DNA of 64,000 bases, from NCBI GenBank assembly GCA_963668425.1, contig OY764332.1:595896-659895 (forward strand). Reading direction: 5' to 3'. Origin of the DNA: Minisyncoccota bacterium (GTDB taxonomy: Bacteria > Patescibacteriota > Minisyncoccia > Phycocordibacterales > JABAAK01). Positions within the stretch are counted from its first letter, which is position 1; the number at the start of each line of letters is the position of its first letter. This document shows positions 53,928-61,380 of the stretch, piece by piece. The notes beneath the pieces were generated by a model. The model saw only the letters and a list, made by a program, of their open reading frames with translations, searched no databases and had not been told where the DNA came from. The position numbers and the translations under genes were made by a program.

Positions 53928-54002
53928 GGCCCTATCGTCTAGCGGCTAGGACACAGCCCTCTCACGGCTGAGACCGGGGTTCAATTCCCCGTAGGGTCAC
54001 CA
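53928..54002 (+). tRNA. tRNA-Glu (anticodon CUC), CCA encoded
   Basis: Acceptor GGCCCTA/TAGGGTC, anticodon stem CAGCC/GGCTG loop CTCTCAC, T-arm GGGGTTCAATTCCCC, 3' ACCA. Confidence 0.8.
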
Positions 54003-54115
54003 ATCAGCCAATATACCTCACTCTGTGTTTTTGTATTCGCCTCCGGTCTCAGCCGATCACGGCTGCCAGTAGTCAGGTTTTTGTCAGAGCCAAAAACACG
54101 GGGGTTTGATTCCAC

Positions 54116-54192
54116 GGTACAGCGTTAGAACTGAAGAAACATTTTGAAAATACCTCGTCCGTTCCACCCTCCTCTTAACTTAACCCCAACCC
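54116..54192. repeat. Left terminal inverted repeat of island
   Basis: Reverse complement aligns with 61201-61278 (…GGTTAAGTTAAGAGGAGGGTGGAACGGACGAGGTATTTTCAAAATGTTTCTTCAGTTCTAACGCTGTACC). Confidence 0.8.
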
Positions 54193-54296
54193 TTATGCTC
54201 GGTGCGACTGTTTCGTTTCGTTTTCCCATCTTCGTTCTTTTGCTCTGCTCTGTAAAAGTCCGAGGGAGGGAATGCTTATGTTAAATCACCTTTTCC

Positions 54297-55082
54297 TTAA
54301 ATTCTCTTCCGTGTTCCTCCTATTCTCCTCCTTGCAATATTTACATACTCACTGTCCCTCTCTATTCCCACCCATTGACATCCACATTGTTTAGCAACAC
54401 ACGCCGTCGTCCCGCTTCCCAAAAACGGATCTAAAACAATATCTTCCTTGTTTGCACTCGCAAGAATAATCCGCCGCAGCATTTCCTCAGGTTTTTGTGT
54501 TGGATGTAGCGCCTTTCCATCGTCGCCCCGTAACCGTTCATCCCCTTGCACAAGCGGCAATTCCCACACATCACGCATTTGCTTTACTTTTCCATTTTTC
54601 TGTCTTTCAGGGTTAATTTCTTTCACTTTTTCGTAATTAAAAGTCCACCCCTTCCCTTTGACTGCCCATATAATAAATTCTGTGGAATGTGTAAAAACTC
54701 GTCTCGTCATGTTCGGCATAGCATTTGTCTTATGCCAGGTAATTACATTGTTTATCTTGAATCCAATCTGTTTTATTGCAGTCATGACCTCGCTAATATT
54801 GTGATAACTGCAGGAGATATAAAATGAACCAGTGTCTTTTAATACTCGATTACAAGCACCGATCCATTGACGGGTAAATTGCACATATTCTGGTACGGTC
54901 ATTTTATCCCAGTGTGCGTCAACCATATACCAATCCCCGCCTGTTTTGTTTCCCTCCCACTTCAAACCATTGCCAGAAAGGTTGTACGGCGGATCCGCAA
55001 AAATTAAATCAATTGTTTGTTCATTAATTTTTTTATTCAAAATCTCTACACAATCACCATTGTAAATAATATTTGTTTTCAT
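54297..55082 (-). CDS. DNA methyltransferase, beta-class (DPPY then FxGxG), M2 of M-R-M operon
   Basis: 261 aa; 'IFADPPYNLSG' N-terminal, 'LDPFLGSGTTACVA' C-terminal; 4-nt overlap with upstream REase. Confidence 0.85.
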   Translation of the reverse strand: MKTNIIYNGDCVEILNKKINEQTIDLIFADPPYNLSGNGLKWEGNKTGGDWYMVDAHWDKMTVPEYVQFTRQWIGACNRVLKDTGSFYISCSYHNISEVMTAIKQIGFKINNVITWHKTNAMPNMTRRVFTHSTEFIIWAVKGKGWTFNYEKVKEINPERQKNGKVKQMRDVWELPLVQGDERLRGDDGKALHPTQKPEEMLRRIILASANKEDIVLDPFLGSGTTACVAKQCGCQWVGIERDSEYVNIARRRIGGTRKRI

Positions 55083-56908
55083 GTTGTTTTTTCAGAAGTG
55101 AGTTTCTTGCCCCACGAAGCGATAACAGTCGGGACAGATTCCAACCATTCATTTGAACTTTTCGACTTCTTTGATAGTGCGACAACTTCATCATAAAGAG
55201 ACATAATGTCCGCATGATGCAGAAAAGCATCTTTTACTTTTATTTCAAGAAGGATGTTTAGTACAGAAATAAATTGGGTAATTGAAAGCGGGATAATTTT
55301 TTGCTTTTTTCCTTCATACTCATATTTAACCGCATTCCAAAATGTATTTACAGTATCTCTATGTAATTGCGGAGCAATAAACAGGCAGTAAGATGGCTTA
55401 TCACTATACATGTTTTCAAAATTTCGTAAGTGTCGCATGATTGGCTGTCCCTCGTTGTACCATTGGTCCCGCCCGGTCAACATGGTAACTTCACATATTG
55501 CATTAAATGTTTCATAAAAACATTCGATGTCTGGCATATTGCCTGGCGCGGTGAAAGTCGGCTCATTATCATCACCAACCGGATAATTCGGCTGTATGTT
55601 TAGTGCATCGTTAAGCGCGGTCAGTCCAAGAGCAGACAATTTTTCAAGCAGTAATGGGCGGTCTTCTTGTTCAAAAATATTTTTCAACAATTCAACATAC
55701 GATGCAACATGTTCTGCGCTCTGCGACTCTCTTTGCACCATTTCATCTTGTAATGTTTTCCTATATGCACGCAATTCTGTAACATATTCTTTCAAAACAC
55801 TATCATCCATCTTTTTATAATCCTCAATTATACGCATTTGTTGCTGCAAATCCTTTTCATGTGTCTGTATATCAGAAATAAGATTGGTAATAATTTCTGT
55901 ATGTTTTGCCCTTGTTTCCCATGGTAGTTGAGGTTGAGATATGTCGGAAATATACTCAAGGTACACTTCCTTTGATTCAAATGATTGTGATTGTGCGGTA
56001 TCGCGCTCAAGCAATGATGTAATTTCAACCATTCTTCTCGGCTCAAGATCAACATAGAAACCGCCACCACGAATATACAAATATTTAGTCAGACGAAAAT
56101 ACCGTATCGCATTATCACCATAATCCTTTAGATTGTTCAAAAGAGATTGGACATCTTTATCGTTATCAGTTCCTAAAAATTCAGCAGCAAACTCTTTTCT
56201 GTATTTCTCAAAAAATTTATTCTGTTGCTGCCGTTCTTTTCCTTGAAGATCCGCCCGCAATGTGATAATCTCATTGGTATATTTTTGTACATCACTATAA
56301 TGTACCAAGGTTGGAACAAAAAGAGCAAACTCTTTTTTGCTAATTCCTTTTGCTTTATTCCCATTATACCCCTCCTTTTCATTTATCGCATTAATCAGAT
56401 GTAACATTCCGACAAATGGTTTAATATCATACTCTGCATCCGAAGAGTAGTCATCACTATCAGGATTTGGTATTTGCCATTTCAAAAAACTTCTCAAAAA
56501 CACTTCGCCTAAGTCAAAGTCATCTTGTAAAAACAGCTTCCCTAAATCGGTGACGCATACCTTGCCATCCCGAATGGCGACAAAGCCGAGTTTTCTCAAG
56601 GGATTAATTGACTGCCTGCCGCGCATTGCTGGATCTTCATATTGTTTTCCCAGAAAAATCTTTTCTGCCTCTTTAAATGGGACATCTTTTGAAAAATTAT
56701 CCAATAACTTTACTTGGTTTTTTGAAAGGGTGTTATAAAACTGTGTATTGCCGTAACCGTACAATCTGCTTTGAATTAATAAAATTTGAAACTTTTTTTG
56801 ATTTTCAAAATCCCAGTCCATTCCTTCAAGCTGACTTAACACACCTAGGAAACCCCGTAATCTTTCCGGGCTCCGTAGTGTTGTAGTGATTGACCATGGC
56901 TTTTTCAT
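55079..56908 (-). CDS. Putative type IIS-like restriction endonuclease (uncharacterised about 610-aa protein between two methyltransferases)
   Basis: Start set to ATG 1 nt after upstream methyltransferase stop; tightly coupled on both sides with methyltransferases of different classes, the usual arrangement for asymmetric-site type IIS systems; no family recognisable by eye. Confidence 0.4.
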   Translation of the reverse strand: MKKPWSITTTLRSPERLRGFLGVLSQLEGMDWDFENQKKFQILLIQSRLYGYGNTQFYNTLSKNQVKLLDNFSKDVPFKEAEKIFLGKQYEDPAMRGRQSINPLRKLGFVAIRDGKVCVTDLGKLFLQDDFDLGEVFLRSFLKWQIPNPDSDDYSSDAEYDIKPFVGMLHLINAINEKEGYNGNKAKGISKKEFALFVPTLVHYSDVQKYTNEIITLRADLQGKERQQQNKFFEKYRKEFAAEFLGTDNDKDVQSLLNNLKDYGDNAIRYFRLTKYLYIRGGGFYVDLEPRRMVEITSLLERDTAQSQSFESKEVYLEYISDISQPQLPWETRAKHTEIITNLISDIQTHEKDLQQQMRIIEDYKKMDDSVLKEYVTELRAYRKTLQDEMVQRESQSAEHVASYVELLKNIFEQEDRPLLLEKLSALGLTALNDALNIQPNYPVGDDNEPTFTAPGNMPDIECFYETFNAICEVTMLTGRDQWYNEGQPIMRHLRNFENMYSDKPSYCLFIAPQLHRDTVNTFWNAVKYEYEGKKQKIIPLSITQFISVLNILLEIKVKDAFLHHADIMSLYDEVVALSKKSKSSNEWLESVPTVIASWGKKLTSEKTT

Positions 56909-56909
56909 G

Positions 56910-58127
56910 CTATTTCTTGACTTCGCAATAAAAAATTCTTTCCGCATTATTTTCTCCATCGCTTTTCCCAGTTGTAAATGCCTTGTACCTTTTCTCAAAA
57001 ATCTCAACTGCTCCACGCTTTTTTAAAACTTGTACGATATCCTCATCGTTCATTCGTGCATTTGATCGACCATCTTTTAAATCACCGGTATTGTTATACG
57101 AAAGTAGAATATACTTACAGTTCGCATGCTCAATCAAATCAGCAAAGGCAGATGTTGCATCCTTGAGACAGTATTTACTTTTTATGTGCGAACGATCCAT
57201 TTTTTTAGCAACGCCAAACACATCAGGCTTTTCCCATGTGACCAAATTTTCCAAAAGGTGATATGCATCGGAATACTGCCGAGAGTTATATGGCGGATCA
57301 ATATAAAGTACATCACAAGAGATCTTTCTTATAAGGTCATTTGCATCTTCTCTATATACCTCATTACCTGCATTCTTTCTGTATGACACCTCTGGATTCA
57401 AAAGTTGCACAGGATTTAACATGTCCATCTTCCTCCTAAACGCATCATAGTGACCGACAGTATTTGCCGCACGATCAACTGAGTATAGAAGTGAGCATAG
57501 TAAGATATTTTTTTCATCATCATTTTTCACAACATTCTCTATTTCTTCCCGAATGGCACCAATCTTTTGAGCATTCCTTTTTGAGAAATAGGTTCCACCA
57601 AAATGTTTTGAAAAATAATTTTCTGTTTCATCTGATAATCTATTAAGGTATTTTATTTTTTCTGAAACATTTTCATACATTCCACCATCATCAATATCCA
57701 AAAATGTTCGTAAACACACATAGTTAGCGGAAAGAAAATCATTGGAGATAATTTTTATTTCTCTGGTGTTAAAACTCTCTCCGACAACGCCAGTGCCAGC
57801 AAATATGTCGCAGAAAGAATTCACTTCTTTGCACTTACTGAAGACAATGCTTTTAATAAAATCAATTAGTCTGTACTTATTGCCTAAATACCTCCTGCTT
57901 TGTATCTGAAAATATCCGTCATTTGGCTTTTTTTGTTCAAAATACTTTTTTGTTTTTAGTGATTTAATAAGAGATGCAGTATCAATCCCAGGAACATCAA
58001 AAAGTGCTTGCTGTTCCCTATCTTTGGTGTGCCAAAAACCTTCATCACAGTATCCATCTGTGCATATAAAATTATCCTCATGATTTATACACCGCTCAAC
58101 AATTCTATCTTTTTCATTATTCTTCAT
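56910..58127 (-). CDS. DNA N6-adenine methyltransferase, alpha-class (FxGxG then DPPY), with Cys-rich N-terminal extension, M1 of M-R-M operon
   Basis: 405 aa; 'CDIFAGTGVVGESF' followed by 'VLYIDPPYNSRQY'; N-terminal 'CINHEDNFICTDGYCDEGFWH'. Confidence 0.8.
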   Translation of the reverse strand: MKNNEKDRIVERCINHEDNFICTDGYCDEGFWHTKDREQQALFDVPGIDTASLIKSLKTKKYFEQKKPNDGYFQIQSRRYLGNKYRLIDFIKSIVFSKCKEVNSFCDIFAGTGVVGESFNTREIKIISNDFLSANYVCLRTFLDIDDGGMYENVSEKIKYLNRLSDETENYFSKHFGGTYFSKRNAQKIGAIREEIENVVKNDDEKNILLCSLLYSVDRAANTVGHYDAFRRKMDMLNPVQLLNPEVSYRKNAGNEVYREDANDLIRKISCDVLYIDPPYNSRQYSDAYHLLENLVTWEKPDVFGVAKKMDRSHIKSKYCLKDATSAFADLIEHANCKYILLSYNNTGDLKDGRSNARMNDEDIVQVLKKRGAVEIFEKRYKAFTTGKSDGENNAERIFYCEVKK

Positions 58128-58166
58128 ATGTATTTAGTATATCTCACAAATGGGAAATCCTTATTT

Positions 58167-59330
58167 TCAAAGTAATTCCCTCTGTCTTCTTACCTTATTC
58201 CATTTCTCAACATCTTCAAATTCATCGTTTTCAGCATAATCATATATTATGCCTACGCTATGCCTTGCCCTTGTAATTGCAATATAAAATTTACAACGGG
58301 TAGTATCCTTTAATTGATTTTCGTGATCTTTAATCCATTTTTTAATATCGTCCGTTGGATAAATAAGAACTTTGTCAAATGTCAAACCTTTTGATTTTCC
58401 ATAATTTATTGCTGGATATTCTGACAATTTTAGTTTCAAGATTTGCGGCGAGTGTGTATTGATGTAATCACACTCATCATCACTTCTGACCAAAAAAACG
58501 CCTTCGTGATCTGTTACATGTTTTCTGCATTTTGCACAGATACAAGGGGTAGAAGATTCATATTGAGGAGGAGGAAAAAGTTTGGATGAAAAATCACAGA
58601 TAGATTGATTATTCCTGTGTGTTCTGTTCAATGTTTCTTGATCTATTACACAACCAAAAGCACAACACTCTGTTTCAATAAATTCTTTAATTTTTCCATT
58701 TTTATATTTTATATTTTTTCTCGCATGACTTGTTAAGTAGGCGACTTGTCTTGGATCACCAACCAATAAAATCCTTGATTGTGTGCCAAGGAGTATTTTT
58801 ATTACCTCTAAATCCCATCCGGCAAGATCCTGCACTTCATCAATAAAAATATGCTGATATATTCTTGAGATTCTATCAATTACTTTTCCGCCTGTTTTGT
58901 CGTTACATTTAAGAATAAACTTTGAAATCTTATCTGAGTATATTTTCCAACCCTCTGTAAAATAGTATTGAGGAAAATCATTCTCTCCCCAATATATCGG
59001 TTTTTCTTTTTTCTTTCTGTTTCTATTTTTACAAGCAGATATTTCTGATGACAAATAAAACCCTATTCTTTTTCCAAATAAACCGTCATTCATTGACCCC
59101 TGATACGGTCTCACACCATGTTGCAAGAGAAAAGAAAACCACGTTTGAACCGTTATGTTTGGCGGTATGTTTCCATTCTTTTCTGTAATTTTTCTTCTAA
59201 TCTCTTGTTCGTTTTCTTCTGTATAAGTAGTAATCAAAATATTCTCTTTCTTAACTTTCAATGCTTCTGTGATAAGATGTGTTGTCTTGCCCGATCCTGC
59301 AACCGCAATTATTAATTTATTTTGATTCAT
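58167..59330 (-). CDS. gajB: GajB-like UvrD/SF1 helicase (short, 387 aa)
   Basis: Walker A 'AVAGSGKTTHL', Walker B 'IFIDEVQDLAGWD', 'VGDPRQ', motif VI 'IAITRARHS'; 14-nt overlap with upstream gajA-like gene. Confidence 0.6.
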   Translation of the reverse strand: MNQNKLIIAVAGSGKTTHLITEALKVKKENILITTYTEENEQEIRRKITEKNGNIPPNITVQTWFSFLLQHGVRPYQGSMNDGLFGKRIGFYLSSEISACKNRNRKKKEKPIYWGENDFPQYYFTEGWKIYSDKISKFILKCNDKTGGKVIDRISRIYQHIFIDEVQDLAGWDLEVIKILLGTQSRILLVGDPRQVAYLTSHARKNIKYKNGKIKEFIETECCAFGCVIDQETLNRTHRNNQSICDFSSKLFPPPQYESSTPCICAKCRKHVTDHEGVFLVRSDDECDYINTHSPQILKLKLSEYPAINYGKSKGLTFDKVLIYPTDDIKKWIKDHENQLKDTTRCKFYIAITRARHSVGIIYDYAENDEFEDVEKWNKVRRQRELL

Positions 59331-60960
59331 GTTCCCATTTAATTGCCTCTAAAATATATTCAGGAAAATTTATGTCTTGATCTGATTCAAATAATTCCAA
59401 CGCACATTTGGTTTTGTTATTTTTCATATGTTCTTCAAGATCTTTGTTGTTCTGATTATCAAGCTTAAAAATACCTGCTAATACATCCAATTGCTTATGA
59501 TTGGCATTTATAATCTGAGGCTCCAATGTCGGCAACTTGTCATTCTTGCTTGCACAGATTTTTATATTTTTTGATTTTTCATAATCTTTGTACTTCTTTT
59601 TAACCTTATTCTCATAATCACCGTCGTTATCGGTCACAACCACCACTGTTTTATTAATCTTATCTGCAATTTCAAGAAATCTTAAAAAAGATGTTCCCAC
59701 AGAAATAACATCAACCTGATCATCAATTGGTGATTTATTTTTTTCCTTCATGTACGCCTTTTGTACTGTTAATTCATCAGACGGACCCTCCACTAAAATA
59801 GCTTTCCTGCAAAGAATCATTCTCAATGTGTCATATCCGGGAAGTTTTTCAAAAAACTTTTGAGTTTCAGGAGTCAAATCATTCATTCTCACTTGATTTA
59901 TGCTATCATCGGGTTCTTTGTTGAGAATAATTAGATTCGCTAAATTAAATTTATTCGCTACAAAATTGCTATGTGTTGAGACTATAGCCTGTTTCTTATT
60001 AGTGTCATCTGTCTTATTATCCTTCAGATGTTTAATTAATTTATTTAGATTTGCGTGTGATAAGTGGTTCTCTGGCTCTTCAAGTAATAATATATTCGCC
60101 TCTTTCGCTTTTTTGTGATTAAGTGCTAATTGAGTTTTGACTAAGGATTGCTCACCTTTCCCAATAAAATCAAAAGGTATGTTGTTCAGATAGGTTTTTA
60201 AGCTTGTTTCCCATGCAGTTTTTGTTGAAACATCGGCTGATAAGGTGATTTTCTTGTTAGATATATTATTCTGACTTAACTTTTCATTTATTTTGTTGAC
60301 GATGTCTTCTTCGGCAAATGAATCTTTAAGCTTTCTATGTGCTTGAGCTATTTTTACTTTTTCACCATCTTCAAGAAGGTCACGAATTATGTGAGATATA
60401 TAAACATCAGATCCATTTTGATAACGACCACTTGTTGAATCTATAAAGGAAGATTTAAATGGTATACTTCGTGGGGTTATGCTCTCCCTTGCAAATGATT
60501 GCCACTCACAGTCATAGTACTCAATCGGCAAAGATTTTAAATCACCATCATCTAAGAGTGCGTCGTGTTCCGATTTGTATCGTTCTTGAAATAAAATCTC
60601 AAATCGTATACCACACCCCTTCTGTCTGGTGGTATTATTATCTCCCTCAAAATTTGCTTTTATCACATCATTATCAATTTCAAAAAACAATTCAATTCTG
60701 ACATGCGGAGGATCCACATTTTCATTTTGATCGGAAATGTATTTTTCCATAACTTCCTTGTTGAAGAGTGCCTCACTATGTCCTGTTCGTATATGTCTAC
60801 CGTGAAACCAGCCAGAAAGTGCAAGATGAACCGCCTCTAAAATTGTAGATTTTCCAGATTCATTATCCCCAACTAATATATTTAAACCCTCATTAAGTTC
60901 CAAAATAAACTCACCTTTGAAACATTTAAAATTTTCAATTACTATCTTTTTCAATCTCAT
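59317..60960 (-). CDS. gajA: GajA-like OLD-family ABC ATPase with C-terminal Toprim nuclease domain
   Basis: 547 aa; Walker A 'GDNESGKSTILEA', Walker B/D-loop 'ILLLEEPENHLS', Toprim 'ILVEGPSDE' and 'VVVVTDNDGDYE'. Confidence 0.7.
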   Translation of the reverse strand: MRLKKIVIENFKCFKGEFILELNEGLNILVGDNESGKSTILEAVHLALSGWFHGRHIRTGHSEALFNKEVMEKYISDQNENVDPPHVRIELFFEIDNDVIKANFEGDNNTTRQKGCGIRFEILFQERYKSEHDALLDDGDLKSLPIEYYDCEWQSFARESITPRSIPFKSSFIDSTSGRYQNGSDVYISHIIRDLLEDGEKVKIAQAHRKLKDSFAEEDIVNKINEKLSQNNISNKKITLSADVSTKTAWETSLKTYLNNIPFDFIGKGEQSLVKTQLALNHKKAKEANILLLEEPENHLSHANLNKLIKHLKDNKTDDTNKKQAIVSTHSNFVANKFNLANLIILNKEPDDSINQVRMNDLTPETQKFFEKLPGYDTLRMILCRKAILVEGPSDELTVQKAYMKEKNKSPIDDQVDVISVGTSFLRFLEIADKINKTVVVVTDNDGDYENKVKKKYKDYEKSKNIKICASKNDKLPTLEPQIINANHKQLDVLAGIFKLDNQNNKDLEEHMKNNKTKCALELFESDQDINFPEYILEAIKWEHESK

Positions 60961-60967
60961 ACCTATT

Positions 60968-61147
60968 ACTTTAATAATGCCAAATGCCTACCTTTCTCAA
61001 TAGCCAGCCAGTTAACGGATAAGCAATAAAAACTGCTATAAGCGCTGGTTTTACTGGTTCATTGAAAATATTCCAAAGCAAGGCAAAAATAACAATGGTG
61101 ATTACTTTATTTACCACGCTTCCTAATGTTGAGTGAAAGTTTTTCAT
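60968..61147 (-). CDS. Unannotated 59-aa two-TM small membrane protein heading the Gabija-like operon
   Basis: Translation by hand of the minus strand: MKNFHSTLGSVVNKVITIVIFALLWNIFNEPVKPALIAVFIAYPLTGWLLRKVGIWHY; stop 8 nt before gajA-like start; below the ORF-track size cut-off. Confidence 0.3.
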
Positions 61148-61200
61148 AAAAACATTTTACCATTATTTGGTTAAGGTGTTTACGGTGCGGTCCGAGCGTA

Positions 61201-61278
61201 GGGGTTGGGTTTAAGTTAAGAGGAAGGTGGAACGGATGAGGTGTTTTCAAAATGTTTCTTCGGCTCTAACGCTGTACC
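61201..61278. repeat. Right terminal inverted repeat of island
   Basis: See TIR-L; abuts DR2 at 61280. Confidence 0.8.
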
Positions 61279-61380
61279 ATAAGGTCACCAATCAGCCAGC
61301 AGATACCGTATTTCATGCCTCTGTATTTATCTCTGATTTTAGAAATTTAGGCATTTCTCTGGTGGTACACTATAAACATC

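What the first reader, a model, noticed from the sequence alone, without database searches (positions are those of the whole stretch)
54297..58127. M-R-M operon: two methyltransferases of opposite motif order flanking an unclassifiable 610-aa putative endonuclease
Gene 56910-58127 is alpha-class (FxGxG before DPPY) with a Cys-rich N-terminal extension. Gene 54297-55082 is beta-class (DPPY before FxGxG). Between them, with start/stop coupling on both sides (1-nt gap upstream, 4-nt overlap downstream), is a large protein with no motif I can assign. Two separate strand-specific methyltransferases plus one nuclease is the classic solution for asymmetric (type IIS) sites. The endonuclease may represent an undescribed family.
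Basis: partly seen in the sequence, partly recalled or inferred. Interest (0 to 1): 0.5.

Follow-up and report, generated by a model that had tools for sequence, protein, structure and literature searches.

The report
Ordinary AlwI-family type IIS restriction-modification operon
The three genes are a real restriction-modification operon, but the "unclassifiable" middle protein clearly belongs to the known AlwI/N.BstNBI family of type IIS restriction endonucleases, so this is a new member of a known kind.

Summary
Three translationally coupled genes lie on the minus strand. M1 (56910-58127, 405 aa) is a D12/alpha-class m6A methyltransferase. R (55079-56908) is 609 aa, not 610. M2 (54297-55082, 261 aa) is a beta-class methyltransferase.

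The claim that R is unclassifiable fails. R matches Pfam RE_AlwI end to end (E 6.6e-88) and solved Nt.BspD6I (E 2.5e-37). An AlphaFold model superposes on Nt.BspD6I over its full length (TM 0.71-0.73). All four BspD6I catalytic acidic residues are invariant in 45 relatives. More than 2,400 homologues exist, and NCBI already names several "AlwI family type II restriction endonuclease".

The M1-R-M2 order recurs in most of 80 genomes from many phyla. No BspD6I-type small subunit is encoded nearby. The type IIS reading is therefore supported. The recognition site is unknown: M2 is CcrM-like (GANTC type), a weak hint of GAGTC.

The Cys-rich N-terminus of M1 is not conserved. Relatives carry RadC, LexA or HTH domains at that position.

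The operon sits beside a complete Gabija system. Both lie in a low-GC 7.2-kb block bounded by 87-nt inverted repeats, next to tRNA-Glu.

Interest is low.

The parts
56910..58127 (-). M1: D12-class (alpha) N6-adenine DNA methyltransferase, 405 aa. The core is residues ~76-405. Residues 1-75 are a non-conserved N-terminal extension.
   Evidence: Pfam PF02086 E 2.3e-32 over residues 80-336. PADLOC MTase_II PDLC03373 E 3.9e-113. FAGTG at 109 and DPPY at 277. The extension is not conserved in L083/L081.
55079..56908 (-). R: AlwI-family type IIS restriction endonuclease, 609 aa.
   Evidence: Pfam PF09491 E 6.6e-88 over residues 106-549. PDB Nt.BspD6I E 2.5e-37. PADLOC PDLC03393 E 7.6e-143, full length. 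AF2 model with pLDDT 81 gives Foldseek 2ewf E 1.5e-23, TM 0.71/0.73.
55919..56908 (-). R residues ~1-330: predicted DNA-recognition domain made of helical/winged-helix subdomains.
   Evidence: Aligns to the N-terminal domain of Nt.BspD6I. Foldseek also hits the BpuJI recognition domain bound to DNA, E 2e-4.
55082..55660 (-). R residues ~417-609: PD-(D/E)XK catalytic domain with E422, D460, E473 and E486.
   Evidence: These residues align to BspD6I E418, D456, E469 and E482. They are invariant in 45 homologues. D456A and E418A inactivate Nt.BspD6I (PMC6261011). The domain matches the BspD6I small subunit 2p14, TMt 0.79.
54297..55082 (-). M2: beta-class N6-adenine (CcrM/HinfI-like) DNA methyltransferase, 261 aa, catalytic domain only.
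   Evidence: Pfam PF01555 E 1e-62. PDB CcrM 6pbd E 4e-64. NCBIfam CcrM model 263.8 bits, below its 830-bit cut-off. DPPY at 30 and FLGSG at 220.
58128..58166 (-). 39-nt spacer between the gajB stop and the M1 start. It holds a stretch conserved upstream of M1 in relatives (..AAATAAGRATTTYC..AGATATACTAAATACATATG). It is a possible own promoter giving a very short or absent leader (inferred).
   Evidence: Alignment with L081 and L083. There is no Shine-Dalgarno-like sequence before the ATG. The generic promoter scan found nothing above chance.
58167..59330 (-). Context: gajB (UvrD-like helicase, 387 aa).
   Evidence: PADLOC GajB PDLC00148 E 2.5e-133. Pfam UvrD-helicase.
59317..60960 (-). Context: gajA (OLD-family ATPase plus TOPRIM nuclease, 547 aa).
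   Evidence: PADLOC GajA PDLC00102 E 6.3e-198. Pfam AAA_15 plus OLD-like_TOPRIM.
54116..54202 (.). Context: left arm of the 87-nt inverted repeat that bounds the Gabija plus R-M block.
   Evidence: the repeat finder pair I1, 91% complementary. 79 of 87 positions identical.
61192..61278 (.). Context: right arm of the 87-nt inverted repeat.
53928..54002 (+). Context: tRNA-Glu(ctc). A degenerate copy of its 3' half follows, and the block interrupts that copy.
   Evidence: ARAGORN. Rfam tRNA 61.1 bits. Joined-flank reconstruction.

Best explanation
This is a type IIS restriction-modification operon of the AlwI/MlyI/PleI/N.BstNBI family.

How it most likely works:
- R binds an asymmetric site, probably 5 bp, as a monomer through its N-terminal recognition domain.
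- Its C-terminal PD-(D/E)XK domain (E422, D460, E473, E486) cuts a few bases to one side of the site.
- No BspD6I-type small subunit is encoded nearby. The second strand is therefore most likely cut by a second R monomer that dimerises transiently through the catalytic domain, as in MlyI and AlwI.
- M1 (alpha/D12 class) and M2 (beta class, CcrM-like) each N6-methylate an adenine on one strand of the site, protecting host DNA.
- The three genes are translationally coupled (a 1-nt gap and an ATGA overlap), so methyltransferase and nuclease are made from one message.
- The cassette is a horizontally mobile unit. Here it is linked to a Gabija system in a low-GC defence block next to tRNA-Glu.

Shown: family membership, fold, intact catalytic residues, both methyltransferase motif sets, conserved gene order, and absence of a small-subunit gene.

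Inferred: asymmetry of the site, cleavage geometry, dimerisation, the one-strand-each division of labour, and the site itself. GAGTC/GACTC is my leading guess, at roughly 40-50%.
For: R is an AlwI-family endonuclease:
- Pfam RE_AlwI, 296 bits, E 6.6e-88.
- Nt.BspD6I E 2.5e-37 over residues 83-571, and its small subunit E 3.4e-6 over residues 432-550.
- PADLOC REase_II PDLC03393 E 7.6e-143.
- AF2 model with pLDDT 81 and pTM 0.76 matches 2ewf at E 1.5e-23, TM 0.71/0.73, and the BpuJI recognition domain at E 2e-4.
- E422, D460, E473-V-T and E486 are invariant in 45 homologues of 60-87% identity. They align to BspD6I E418, D456, E469 and E482. D456A and E418A are catalytically dead (PMC6261011).

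The methyltransferases:
- Pfam PF02086 and PF01555, with motifs at the expected positions.
- M2 is closest to CcrM (GANTC), E 4e-64. It keeps DPPY, the Tyr93-His94 pair, Lys118 and the Loop-45 N-x-M-P-N stretch (residue roles from PMC6787082).

Conservation:
- M1-R-M2 in the same order and strand occurs in ~55 of 80 genome loci. These span Patescibacteria, Gammaproteobacteria, Spirochaetes, Chloroflexi, Nitrospirae, Omnitrophota, Cloacimonadota, Planctomycetota and archaea.
- The same cassette occurs in the three closest relatives at unrelated genomic sites.

No second copy of the catalytic domain was found in the window or in any locus.

Literature:
- Type IIS systems usually carry strand-specific methyltransferases. 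AlwI has two fused, and MlyI has one (PMC4081073).
- A beta plus D12 pair methylates GATG/CATC in MhoVII (PMC12898733).

Weak hint for the site: GAGTC/GACTC has O/E 0.89 (rank 44 of 512) in 63 close loci and 0.75 (rank 13 of 512) in 21 distant loci. GGATC has 1.00 and 1.08.
Against: Nothing here measures activity, site or cleavage geometry.
- R is only ~21% identical to BspD6I, so specificity cannot be transferred.
- The best PADLOC profile is labelled 'Type II nicking endonuclease'. With no small subunit present, a stand-alone nickase is not excluded.
- In M2 several CcrM recognition or dimer residues differ: Arg44 to Lys, Arg129 to Val, and the Asp113/His134 pair is lost. Loop-2B is remodelled and the C-terminal domain is absent. 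M2 need not read GANTC.
- GAGTC is not avoided in the window itself (O/E 0.86, rank ~95). The pooled depletion has no matched control.
- If M2 did methylate GANTC on both strands, M1 would be redundant for a GAGTC site.
Confidence: 0.88

Rival explanations
1. R is a natural stand-alone nicking endonuclease, like Nt.BstNBI without a partner. The system would restrict by strand-specific nicking rather than double-strand cleavage.
For: - The best-scoring PADLOC profile (PDLC03393, E 7.6e-143) is labelled 'Type II nicking endonuclease'.
- The closest solved structure is the nickase Nt.BspD6I.
- No small-subunit gene lies in the window or in 83 related loci.
Against: - The PADLOC label comes from database naming by similarity, not from an assay of this clade.
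- Family members without a small subunit (MlyI, AlwI, PleI) cut both strands by dimerising (PMC3017599).
- Two methyltransferases covering both strands would be more than is needed if only one strand were attacked. BstNBI systems are, however, also fully methylated.
Confidence: 0.15
2. R is the large subunit of a heterodimeric BspD6I/BstNBI-type (type IIT) enzyme whose small catalytic subunit is encoded elsewhere in the genome.
For: Homology to the large subunit of R.BspD6I across the full length.
Against: - In BspD6I the small subunit is the adjacent ORF (PMC3017599).
- Here the operon is tightly packed, with only 294 nt to the tRNA downstream.
- tblastn with the catalytic domain finds no second copy in the 64-kb window or in any of 83 related loci.
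- The three-gene cassette moves as a unit between genomes.
Confidence: 0.03
3. One reading: the middle protein is an endonuclease of an undescribed family.
For: R has no NCBIfam model hit.
Against: - Pfam RE_AlwI at 296 bits.
- PDB and fold matches to Nt.BspD6I.
- 2,454 homologues at E<=1e-10, several named AlwI family by NCBI.
Confidence: 0.01

Closest known systems
Nt.BspD6I / Nt.BstNBI (large subunit of R.BspD6I; GAGTC 4/6; PDB 2EWF)
   Same: - Length: 609 vs 604 aa.
- Three-part architecture: recognition domain, helical linker, PD-(D/E)XK catalytic domain.
- Full-length fold match (TM 0.71-0.73).
- All four catalytic acidic residues conserved.
   Different: - Only ~21% identical.
- No adjacent small-subunit gene.
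- Recognition site unknown.
- It belongs to a different PADLOC cluster: PDLC03393 at E 7.6e-143, against PDLC03394 at E 6.3e-36. My reading that PDLC03394 is the BstNBI-like cluster is an inference from its similar score to the PDB hit.
MlyI / PleI (GAGTC) and AlwI (GGATC): homodimerising type IIS enzymes of the same Pfam family
   Same: - Single endonuclease gene with no small subunit.
- Same Pfam family.
- Adenine methyltransferases as partners (PMC3017599, PMC4081073).
   Different: - MlyI has one methyltransferase (GASTC).
- AlwI has two methyltransferases fused in one chain (PMC4081073).
- Here two separate genes of different classes flank R.
- I could not compare sequences directly, because no MlyI, PleI or AlwI sequence was available to the tools.
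MhoVII of Mycoplasma hominis (GATG/CATC)
   Same: A YhdJ-type (beta) methyltransferase and a D12 (alpha) methyltransferase methylate complementary strands of an asymmetric site for one endonuclease (PMC12898733).
   Different: - In MhoVII the two methyltransferases are fused.
- Its endonuclease clusters outside the AlwI family (PMC12898733).
CcrM / M.HinfI-type beta-class GANTC methyltransferases (for M2)
   Same: - 4e-64 match to the CcrM catalytic domain.
- DPPY, Tyr93-His94, Lys118 and the Loop-45 N-x-M-P-N stretch conserved.
   Different: - No C-terminal DNA-binding domain.
- Arg44 to Lys and Arg129 to Val.
- The Asp113/His134 dimer pair is lost.
- Far below the NCBIfam CcrM cut-off: 263.8 vs 830 bits.

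Membership tests
AlwI family restriction endonuclease (Pfam PF09491) | Profile match above the curated threshold over most of the model | tested here: met
   296 bits against a 23.1-bit cut-off, model positions 2-441 of 441.
AlwI family restriction endonuclease (Pfam PF09491) | FokI-like modular fold: N-terminal recognition domain, linker, C-terminal PD-(D/E)XK domain | tested here: met
   AF2 model with pLDDT 81. Foldseek hits: 2ewf E 1.5e-23 (TM 0.71/0.73), 2p14 TMt 0.79, BpuJI recognition domain E 2e-4.
AlwI family restriction endonuclease (Pfam PF09491) | Catalytic acidic residues equivalent to BspD6I E418, D456, E469 and E482 | tested here: met
   E422, D460, E473 and E486 align and are invariant in 45 sequences.
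Type IIS restriction-modification system | Asymmetric recognition sequence with cleavage at a fixed distance outside it | not testable with these tools
   This needs a methylome or in vitro cleavage mapping. The only support is inference from family membership.
Type IIS restriction-modification system | Companion methyltransferase activity able to cover both strands, encoded next to the endonuclease | tested here: met
   Two adenine-methyltransferase genes with complete motif I and motif IV flank R. The arrangement is conserved in ~55 of 80 loci. Strand assignment was not tested.
Heterodimeric BspD6I/BstNBI-type (type IIT) enzyme | Adjacent ~186-aa small catalytic subunit homologous to the large subunit's C-terminal domain | tested here: not met
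   tblastn with R residues 421-609 finds only R itself in the window and in 83 loci. There is no free ORF in the operon.
CcrM orthologue (NCBIfam NF050803), considered for M2 | Score above the equivalog cut-off, plus a C-terminal non-specific DNA-binding domain | tested here: not met
   263.8 bits against an 830-bit cut-off. M2 ends at the catalytic domain, 261 aa against 358.
N6_N4_Mtase beta class (Pfam PF01555), for M2 | Profile match, with DPPY before FxGxG | tested here: met
   212 bits, model 1-220 of 221. DPPY at 30 and FLGSG at 220.
D12-class alpha m6A methyltransferase (Pfam PF02086), for M1 | Profile match, with FxGxG before DPPY and the target-recognition region between them | tested here: met
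   113 bits. FAGTG at 109 and DPPY at 277. M1 is not a Dam-subfamily member: TIGR00571 scores 24.4 against a 114.85-bit cut-off.
Gabija (context genes) | Adjacent GajA (ATPase plus TOPRIM) and GajB (UvrD-like helicase) | tested here: met
   PADLOC GajA E 6.3e-198 and GajB E 2.5e-133, both full length. The genes overlap by 14 nt.

The most novel reading that the evidence does not exclude
The ~605-aa clade to which R belongs is only ~21% identical to any solved or characterised relative, and its members always travel as M(alpha)-R-M(beta). It could have a recognition sequence or cleavage mode not yet in the enzyme catalogue, for example a partner-less natural nickase or a new 5-6 bp asymmetric site. 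Separately, the whole Gabija plus R-M block could be a transposase-less, TIR-bounded mobile defence cassette that targets tRNA-Glu 3'-half repeats.
Probability: 0.2. Interest if true: 0.4.

Novelty: new member of a known kind. Interest (0 to 1): 0.15.

Why it matters
It matters little for basic biology. This is one more predicted type IIS system of a family known since about 2001, and close relatives are already labelled by automatic annotation.

Modest practical value:
- The clade is large, uncharacterised and distant from BstNBI, MlyI and AlwI. One cloned member could yield a new type IIS or nicking specificity for biotechnology.
- The operon marks a compact defence block (Gabija plus R-M) in what is probably a small Patescibacteria-type genome. 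The exact proteins sit on a single 696-kb contig. This is useful for anyone trying to transform or culture such organisms.

Tried and rejected
- **Site avoidance in the window, to infer the recognition site.** GAGTC has O/E 0.86 and GGATC 1.14, which is not informative. Pooling 84 related loci gave only a weak GAGTC depletion, with no control set.
- **Zinc-finger reading of the Cys-rich M1 N-terminus.** Rejected: only 1 of 3 Cys is conserved in L083, the extension is replaced in L081, and there is no Pfam hit there.
- **Small-subunit search.** Negative.
- **PDB sequence search with M1.** No hit at E<=1e-3.
- **Exact-protein context look-up for R (P0001).** Not on record.
- **Primary papers on N.BstNBI/MlyI/PleI, N.MlyI and N.AlwI** (PMC55753, PMC1084030, PMC60812). 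Not held. I therefore could not check the MlyI dimerisation residues or the methyltransferase gene layouts of those systems.
- **Inverted-repeat and hairpin sequences scanned in public collections.** No matches in viral or metagenome contigs.
- **Rfam scan of the block.** Only the two tRNAs.
- **Generic sigma-70 and terminator scan.** Nothing above shuffled expectation.
- **Classical tRNA att-site duplication as the explanation of the 22-nt direct repeat.** Set aside in favour of a tandem tRNA-3'-half unit interrupted by the block.
Full report
**1. The observation**

ORF listing shows three minus-strand genes at the stated coordinates:
- 56910-58127, 405 aa, called M1 here.
- 55079-56908, called R here.
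- 54297-55082, 261 aa, called M2 here.

The mechanical ORF for R runs up to a GTG at 57016. Homologues, the Nt.BspD6I alignment and the PADLOC profile all begin at the ATG at 56908.

The junctions are as described. M1 ends in TAG, one base follows, and R starts at ATG. The R stop and the M2 start share ATGA.

M1 has FAGTG at residue 109 and DPPY at residue 277. M2 has DPPY at residue 30 and FLGSG at residue 220. The alpha and beta motif orders are therefore correct.

**2. What the middle protein is**

R is not unclassifiable.
- It matches Pfam PF09491 (RE_AlwI) at 296 bits, E 6.6e-88, covering model positions 2-441 of 441.
- It matches the solved nickase Nt.BspD6I at E 2.5e-37 over residues 83-571. 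It matches the BspD6I small catalytic subunit at E 3.4e-6 over residues 432-550.
- It matches a PADLOC type II endonuclease profile end to end at E 7.6e-143.
- An AlphaFold2 model built on 45 homologues has mean pLDDT 81.1 and pTM 0.76. It superposes on Nt.BspD6I over the whole chain: Foldseek E 1.5e-23, TM 0.71/0.73, 21% identity.
- The model's C-terminal domain matches the BspD6I small subunit (TMt 0.79). Its N-terminal part matches the DNA-bound recognition domain of BpuJI (E 2e-4).

The catalytic core is intact. In the HMMER alignment, R residues E422, D460, E473 and E486 fall on BspD6I E418, D456, E469 and E482. The surrounding sequences in R are LLLEK, MPD, CEVT and NEGQP. D456A and E418A are catalytically deficient in Nt.BspD6I (PMC6261011). 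All four residues are invariant in 45 relatives of 60-87% identity, as is the EVT triplet.

The family is large. The protein search found 2,454 proteins at E<=1e-10 among the 8,000 candidates scored. More than 100 are ~605-aa proteins at 60-67% identity. Several carry the NCBI name "AlwI family type II restriction endonuclease". The exact R, M1 and M2 sequences are already in NCBI/ENA on a single 696,550-bp contig.

**3. The methyltransferases**

M1 is a D12-class adenine methyltransferase (PF02086, E 2.3e-32; PADLOC MTase_II, E 3.9e-113). It is not a Dam-subfamily member: TIGR00571 scores 24.4 against a cut-off of 114.85.

M2 is a beta-class enzyme (PF01555, E 1e-62). Its nearest solved relative is CcrM (GANTC) at E 4e-64. 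Using the residue roles in the CcrM-DNA structure (PMC6787082):
- M2 keeps DPPY, the Tyr93-His94 pair, Lys118, Phe130 and the Loop-45 N-x-M-P-N stretch.
- M2 has Lys for Arg44 and Val for Arg129, and it loses the Asp113/His134 dimer pair.
- Loop-2B is remodelled and the C-terminal domain is absent.
- M2 scores far below the NCBIfam CcrM cut-off, 263.8 against 830 bits.

M2 is therefore CcrM-like but not a CcrM orthologue. Its exact motif cannot be read from sequence.

**4. Conservation of the cassette**

A scan of one genome per species returned 80 loci encoding relatives of R at 41-65% identity.
- About 55 of the 80 loci have M1 immediately upstream and M2 immediately downstream on the same strand.
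- These hosts include Patescibacteria, Gammaproteobacteria, Spirochaetes, Chloroflexi, Nitrospirae, Omnitrophota, Cloacimonadota, Planctomycetota and two archaea.
- The three closest relatives (R 83-87% identical) carry the same three genes at unrelated chromosomal sites, one beside tRNA-Ser and one near tRNA-Glu. The cassette therefore moves as a unit.
- In the more distant loci (R 41-47% identical), M2 is absent. M1 is instead fused to a second D12 domain, giving ~711 aa. This is the AlwI-style layout of two methyltransferases in one chain (PMC4081073).

No second copy of the catalytic domain, that is no BspD6I-type small subunit, occurs in the window or in any of the 83 loci.

**5. Mechanism**

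Characterised family members fall into two groups (PMC3017599, PMC4081073):
- MlyI, PleI and AlwI are monomers that dimerise on DNA to cut both strands.
- BstNBI/BspD6I is a large subunit that nicks alone and needs an adjacent 186-aa subunit to cut the second strand.

R has an intact catalytic site and no small subunit, so the dimerising model is the best fit. A stand-alone nickase remains possible at about 15%. The best PADLOC profile is labelled "nicking endonuclease", but that label reflects naming by similarity.

Two separate adenine methyltransferases of different classes acting on complementary strands have a published precedent in MhoVII, GATG/CATC (PMC12898733).

The site is unknown. 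M2's likeness to CcrM and the family's GAGTC members make GAGTC/GACTC the leading guess.
- GAGTC shows mild depletion in loci that carry relatives: O/E 0.89 (rank 44 of 512) in 63 close loci and 0.75 (rank 13 of 512) in 21 distant loci.
- GGATC shows 1.00 and 1.08 in the same sets.
- This is a weak hint without a control set, and the window itself shows no avoidance of GAGTC.

**6. The N-terminal extension of M1**

The Cys and His residues are there but are not conserved. In L083 only one of the three Cys survives, and L081 has a different, shorter N-terminus.

Residues ~28-75 align with a linker that precedes the methyltransferase core in relatives. In those relatives the linker follows a fused domain:
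- A complete RadC-like protein (UPF0758_N plus JAB domain) in 28 of 58 complete homologues, giving ~602 aa.
- A complete LexA (DNA-binding domain plus S24 peptidase) in 5 homologues, giving ~557 aa.
- An HTH_3 domain, or a MerR-like helix-turn-helix by eye, in others.

The window's M1 appears to be a version that has lost such a domain.

**7. Context**

Directly upstream on the same strand is a complete Gabija pair: GajA E 6.3e-198 and GajB E 2.5e-133. The gajB stop lies 39 nt before the M1 start.

L081 keeps a ~55-nt remnant of the gajB 3' end between a tRNA-Ser and its M1. The Gabija/R-M junction is therefore older than this genome.

The five genes plus a 58-aa membrane ORF form a 7,163-bp block (54116-61278). 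Its GC content is 0.356, against 0.428 for the rest of the window. The block is bounded by 87-nt inverted repeats that are 79/87 identical.

Joining the outer flanks re-creates a T-arm plus acceptor end about 30/36 identical to the 3' part of the adjacent tRNA-Glu. The block therefore interrupts a degenerate second copy of the tRNA's 3' half.

In L083 a tRNA-Glu is followed by 4.2 tandem 128-nt copies of such a unit. Each copy contains the same 26-nt hairpin, exactly conserved.

No transposase or integrase lies in the block. The repeat sequences have no matches in the viral or metagenome collections.

**8. Verdict**

- The type IIS interpretation is supported by homology.
- The novelty claim is not supported. 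This is a new, uncharacterised member of the AlwI family in a conserved M(alpha)-R-M(beta) cassette.
- Interest is low (0.15).
- What remains unknown is the recognition site, the cleavage mode, and the nature of the TIR-bounded defence block.

Noticed in passing
window 54116-54202 and 61192-61278 (block 54116-61278): 87-nt inverted repeats (79/87 identical) bound a 7,163-bp low-GC block (0.356 vs 0.428). The block holds M2, R, M1, gajB, gajA and a 58-aa membrane ORF, with no transposase or integrase. The repeat sequences have no exact matches in the viral or metagenome collections.
   Followed up: partly
window 53928-54115 plus 61279-61298; L083 7151-7735: After tRNA-Glu comes a degenerate copy of its 3' half: an anticodon-stem-like element, a 26-nt hairpin GTCAGGTTTTTGTCAGAGCCAAAAAC and a T-arm. 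The block splits this copy, and the joined flanks restore the acceptor end. A relative (L083) has tRNA-Glu followed by 4.2 tandem 128-nt copies of the same kind of unit, with the identical hairpin. The nature of these tRNA-half repeats is unexplained.
   Followed up: partly
whole window (sites at 142, 18267, 30435, 57225, 57868, 59518, 59979, 59986): The palindrome AGNCT is almost absent. AGACT/AGTCT occurs 3 times against 64 expected, and AGCCT/AGGCT 5 times against 41. Five of the 8 sites lie inside the 7.2-kb block. TCGA (O/E 0.22), GGCC (0.26), AGCT (0.44) and GCWGC (0.58) are also depleted. This suggests strong restriction avoidance by the host and recent arrival of the block.
   Followed up: partly
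L001, L003-L013, L015, L016, L018, L019 and others (M1 homologues, e.g. L005:4190-5995): In 28 of 58 complete homologues, the M1 methyltransferase is fused in frame to a full RadC-like protein (UPF0758_N plus JAB domain; ~602 aa).
   Followed up: partly
L037:4323-5993, L038, L053, L059, L063: In five genomes M1 is fused in frame to a complete LexA (DNA-binding domain plus S24 peptidase). This hints at SOS-linked control of the methyltransferase. Other homologues carry HTH_3 or MerR-like N-termini.
   Followed up: partly
L062-L080 (e.g. L064:724-2856; L080:3766-7791): More distant relatives of R (41-47% identity) lack M2. They have a fused double D12 methyltransferase (~711 aa) upstream instead. 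In Harryflintia acetispora (L080) the methyltransferases and R read as one 1,341-aa ORF.
   Followed up: no
window 58167-60960; L081 8789-8886; L064 4680-7313: A complete Gabija pair (gajA, gajB) lies 39 nt upstream of M1. A close relative (L081) keeps only a ~55-nt remnant of the gajB 3' end between tRNA-Ser and M1. L064 has a divergent Gabija pair just downstream of its R gene.
   Followed up: partly
window 60971-61147 (-): A 58-aa ORF with two hydrophobic stretches (MKNFHSTLGSVVNKVITIVIFALLWNIF...) lies just upstream of gajA, inside the block. Its function is unknown and it was not searched.
   Followed up: no
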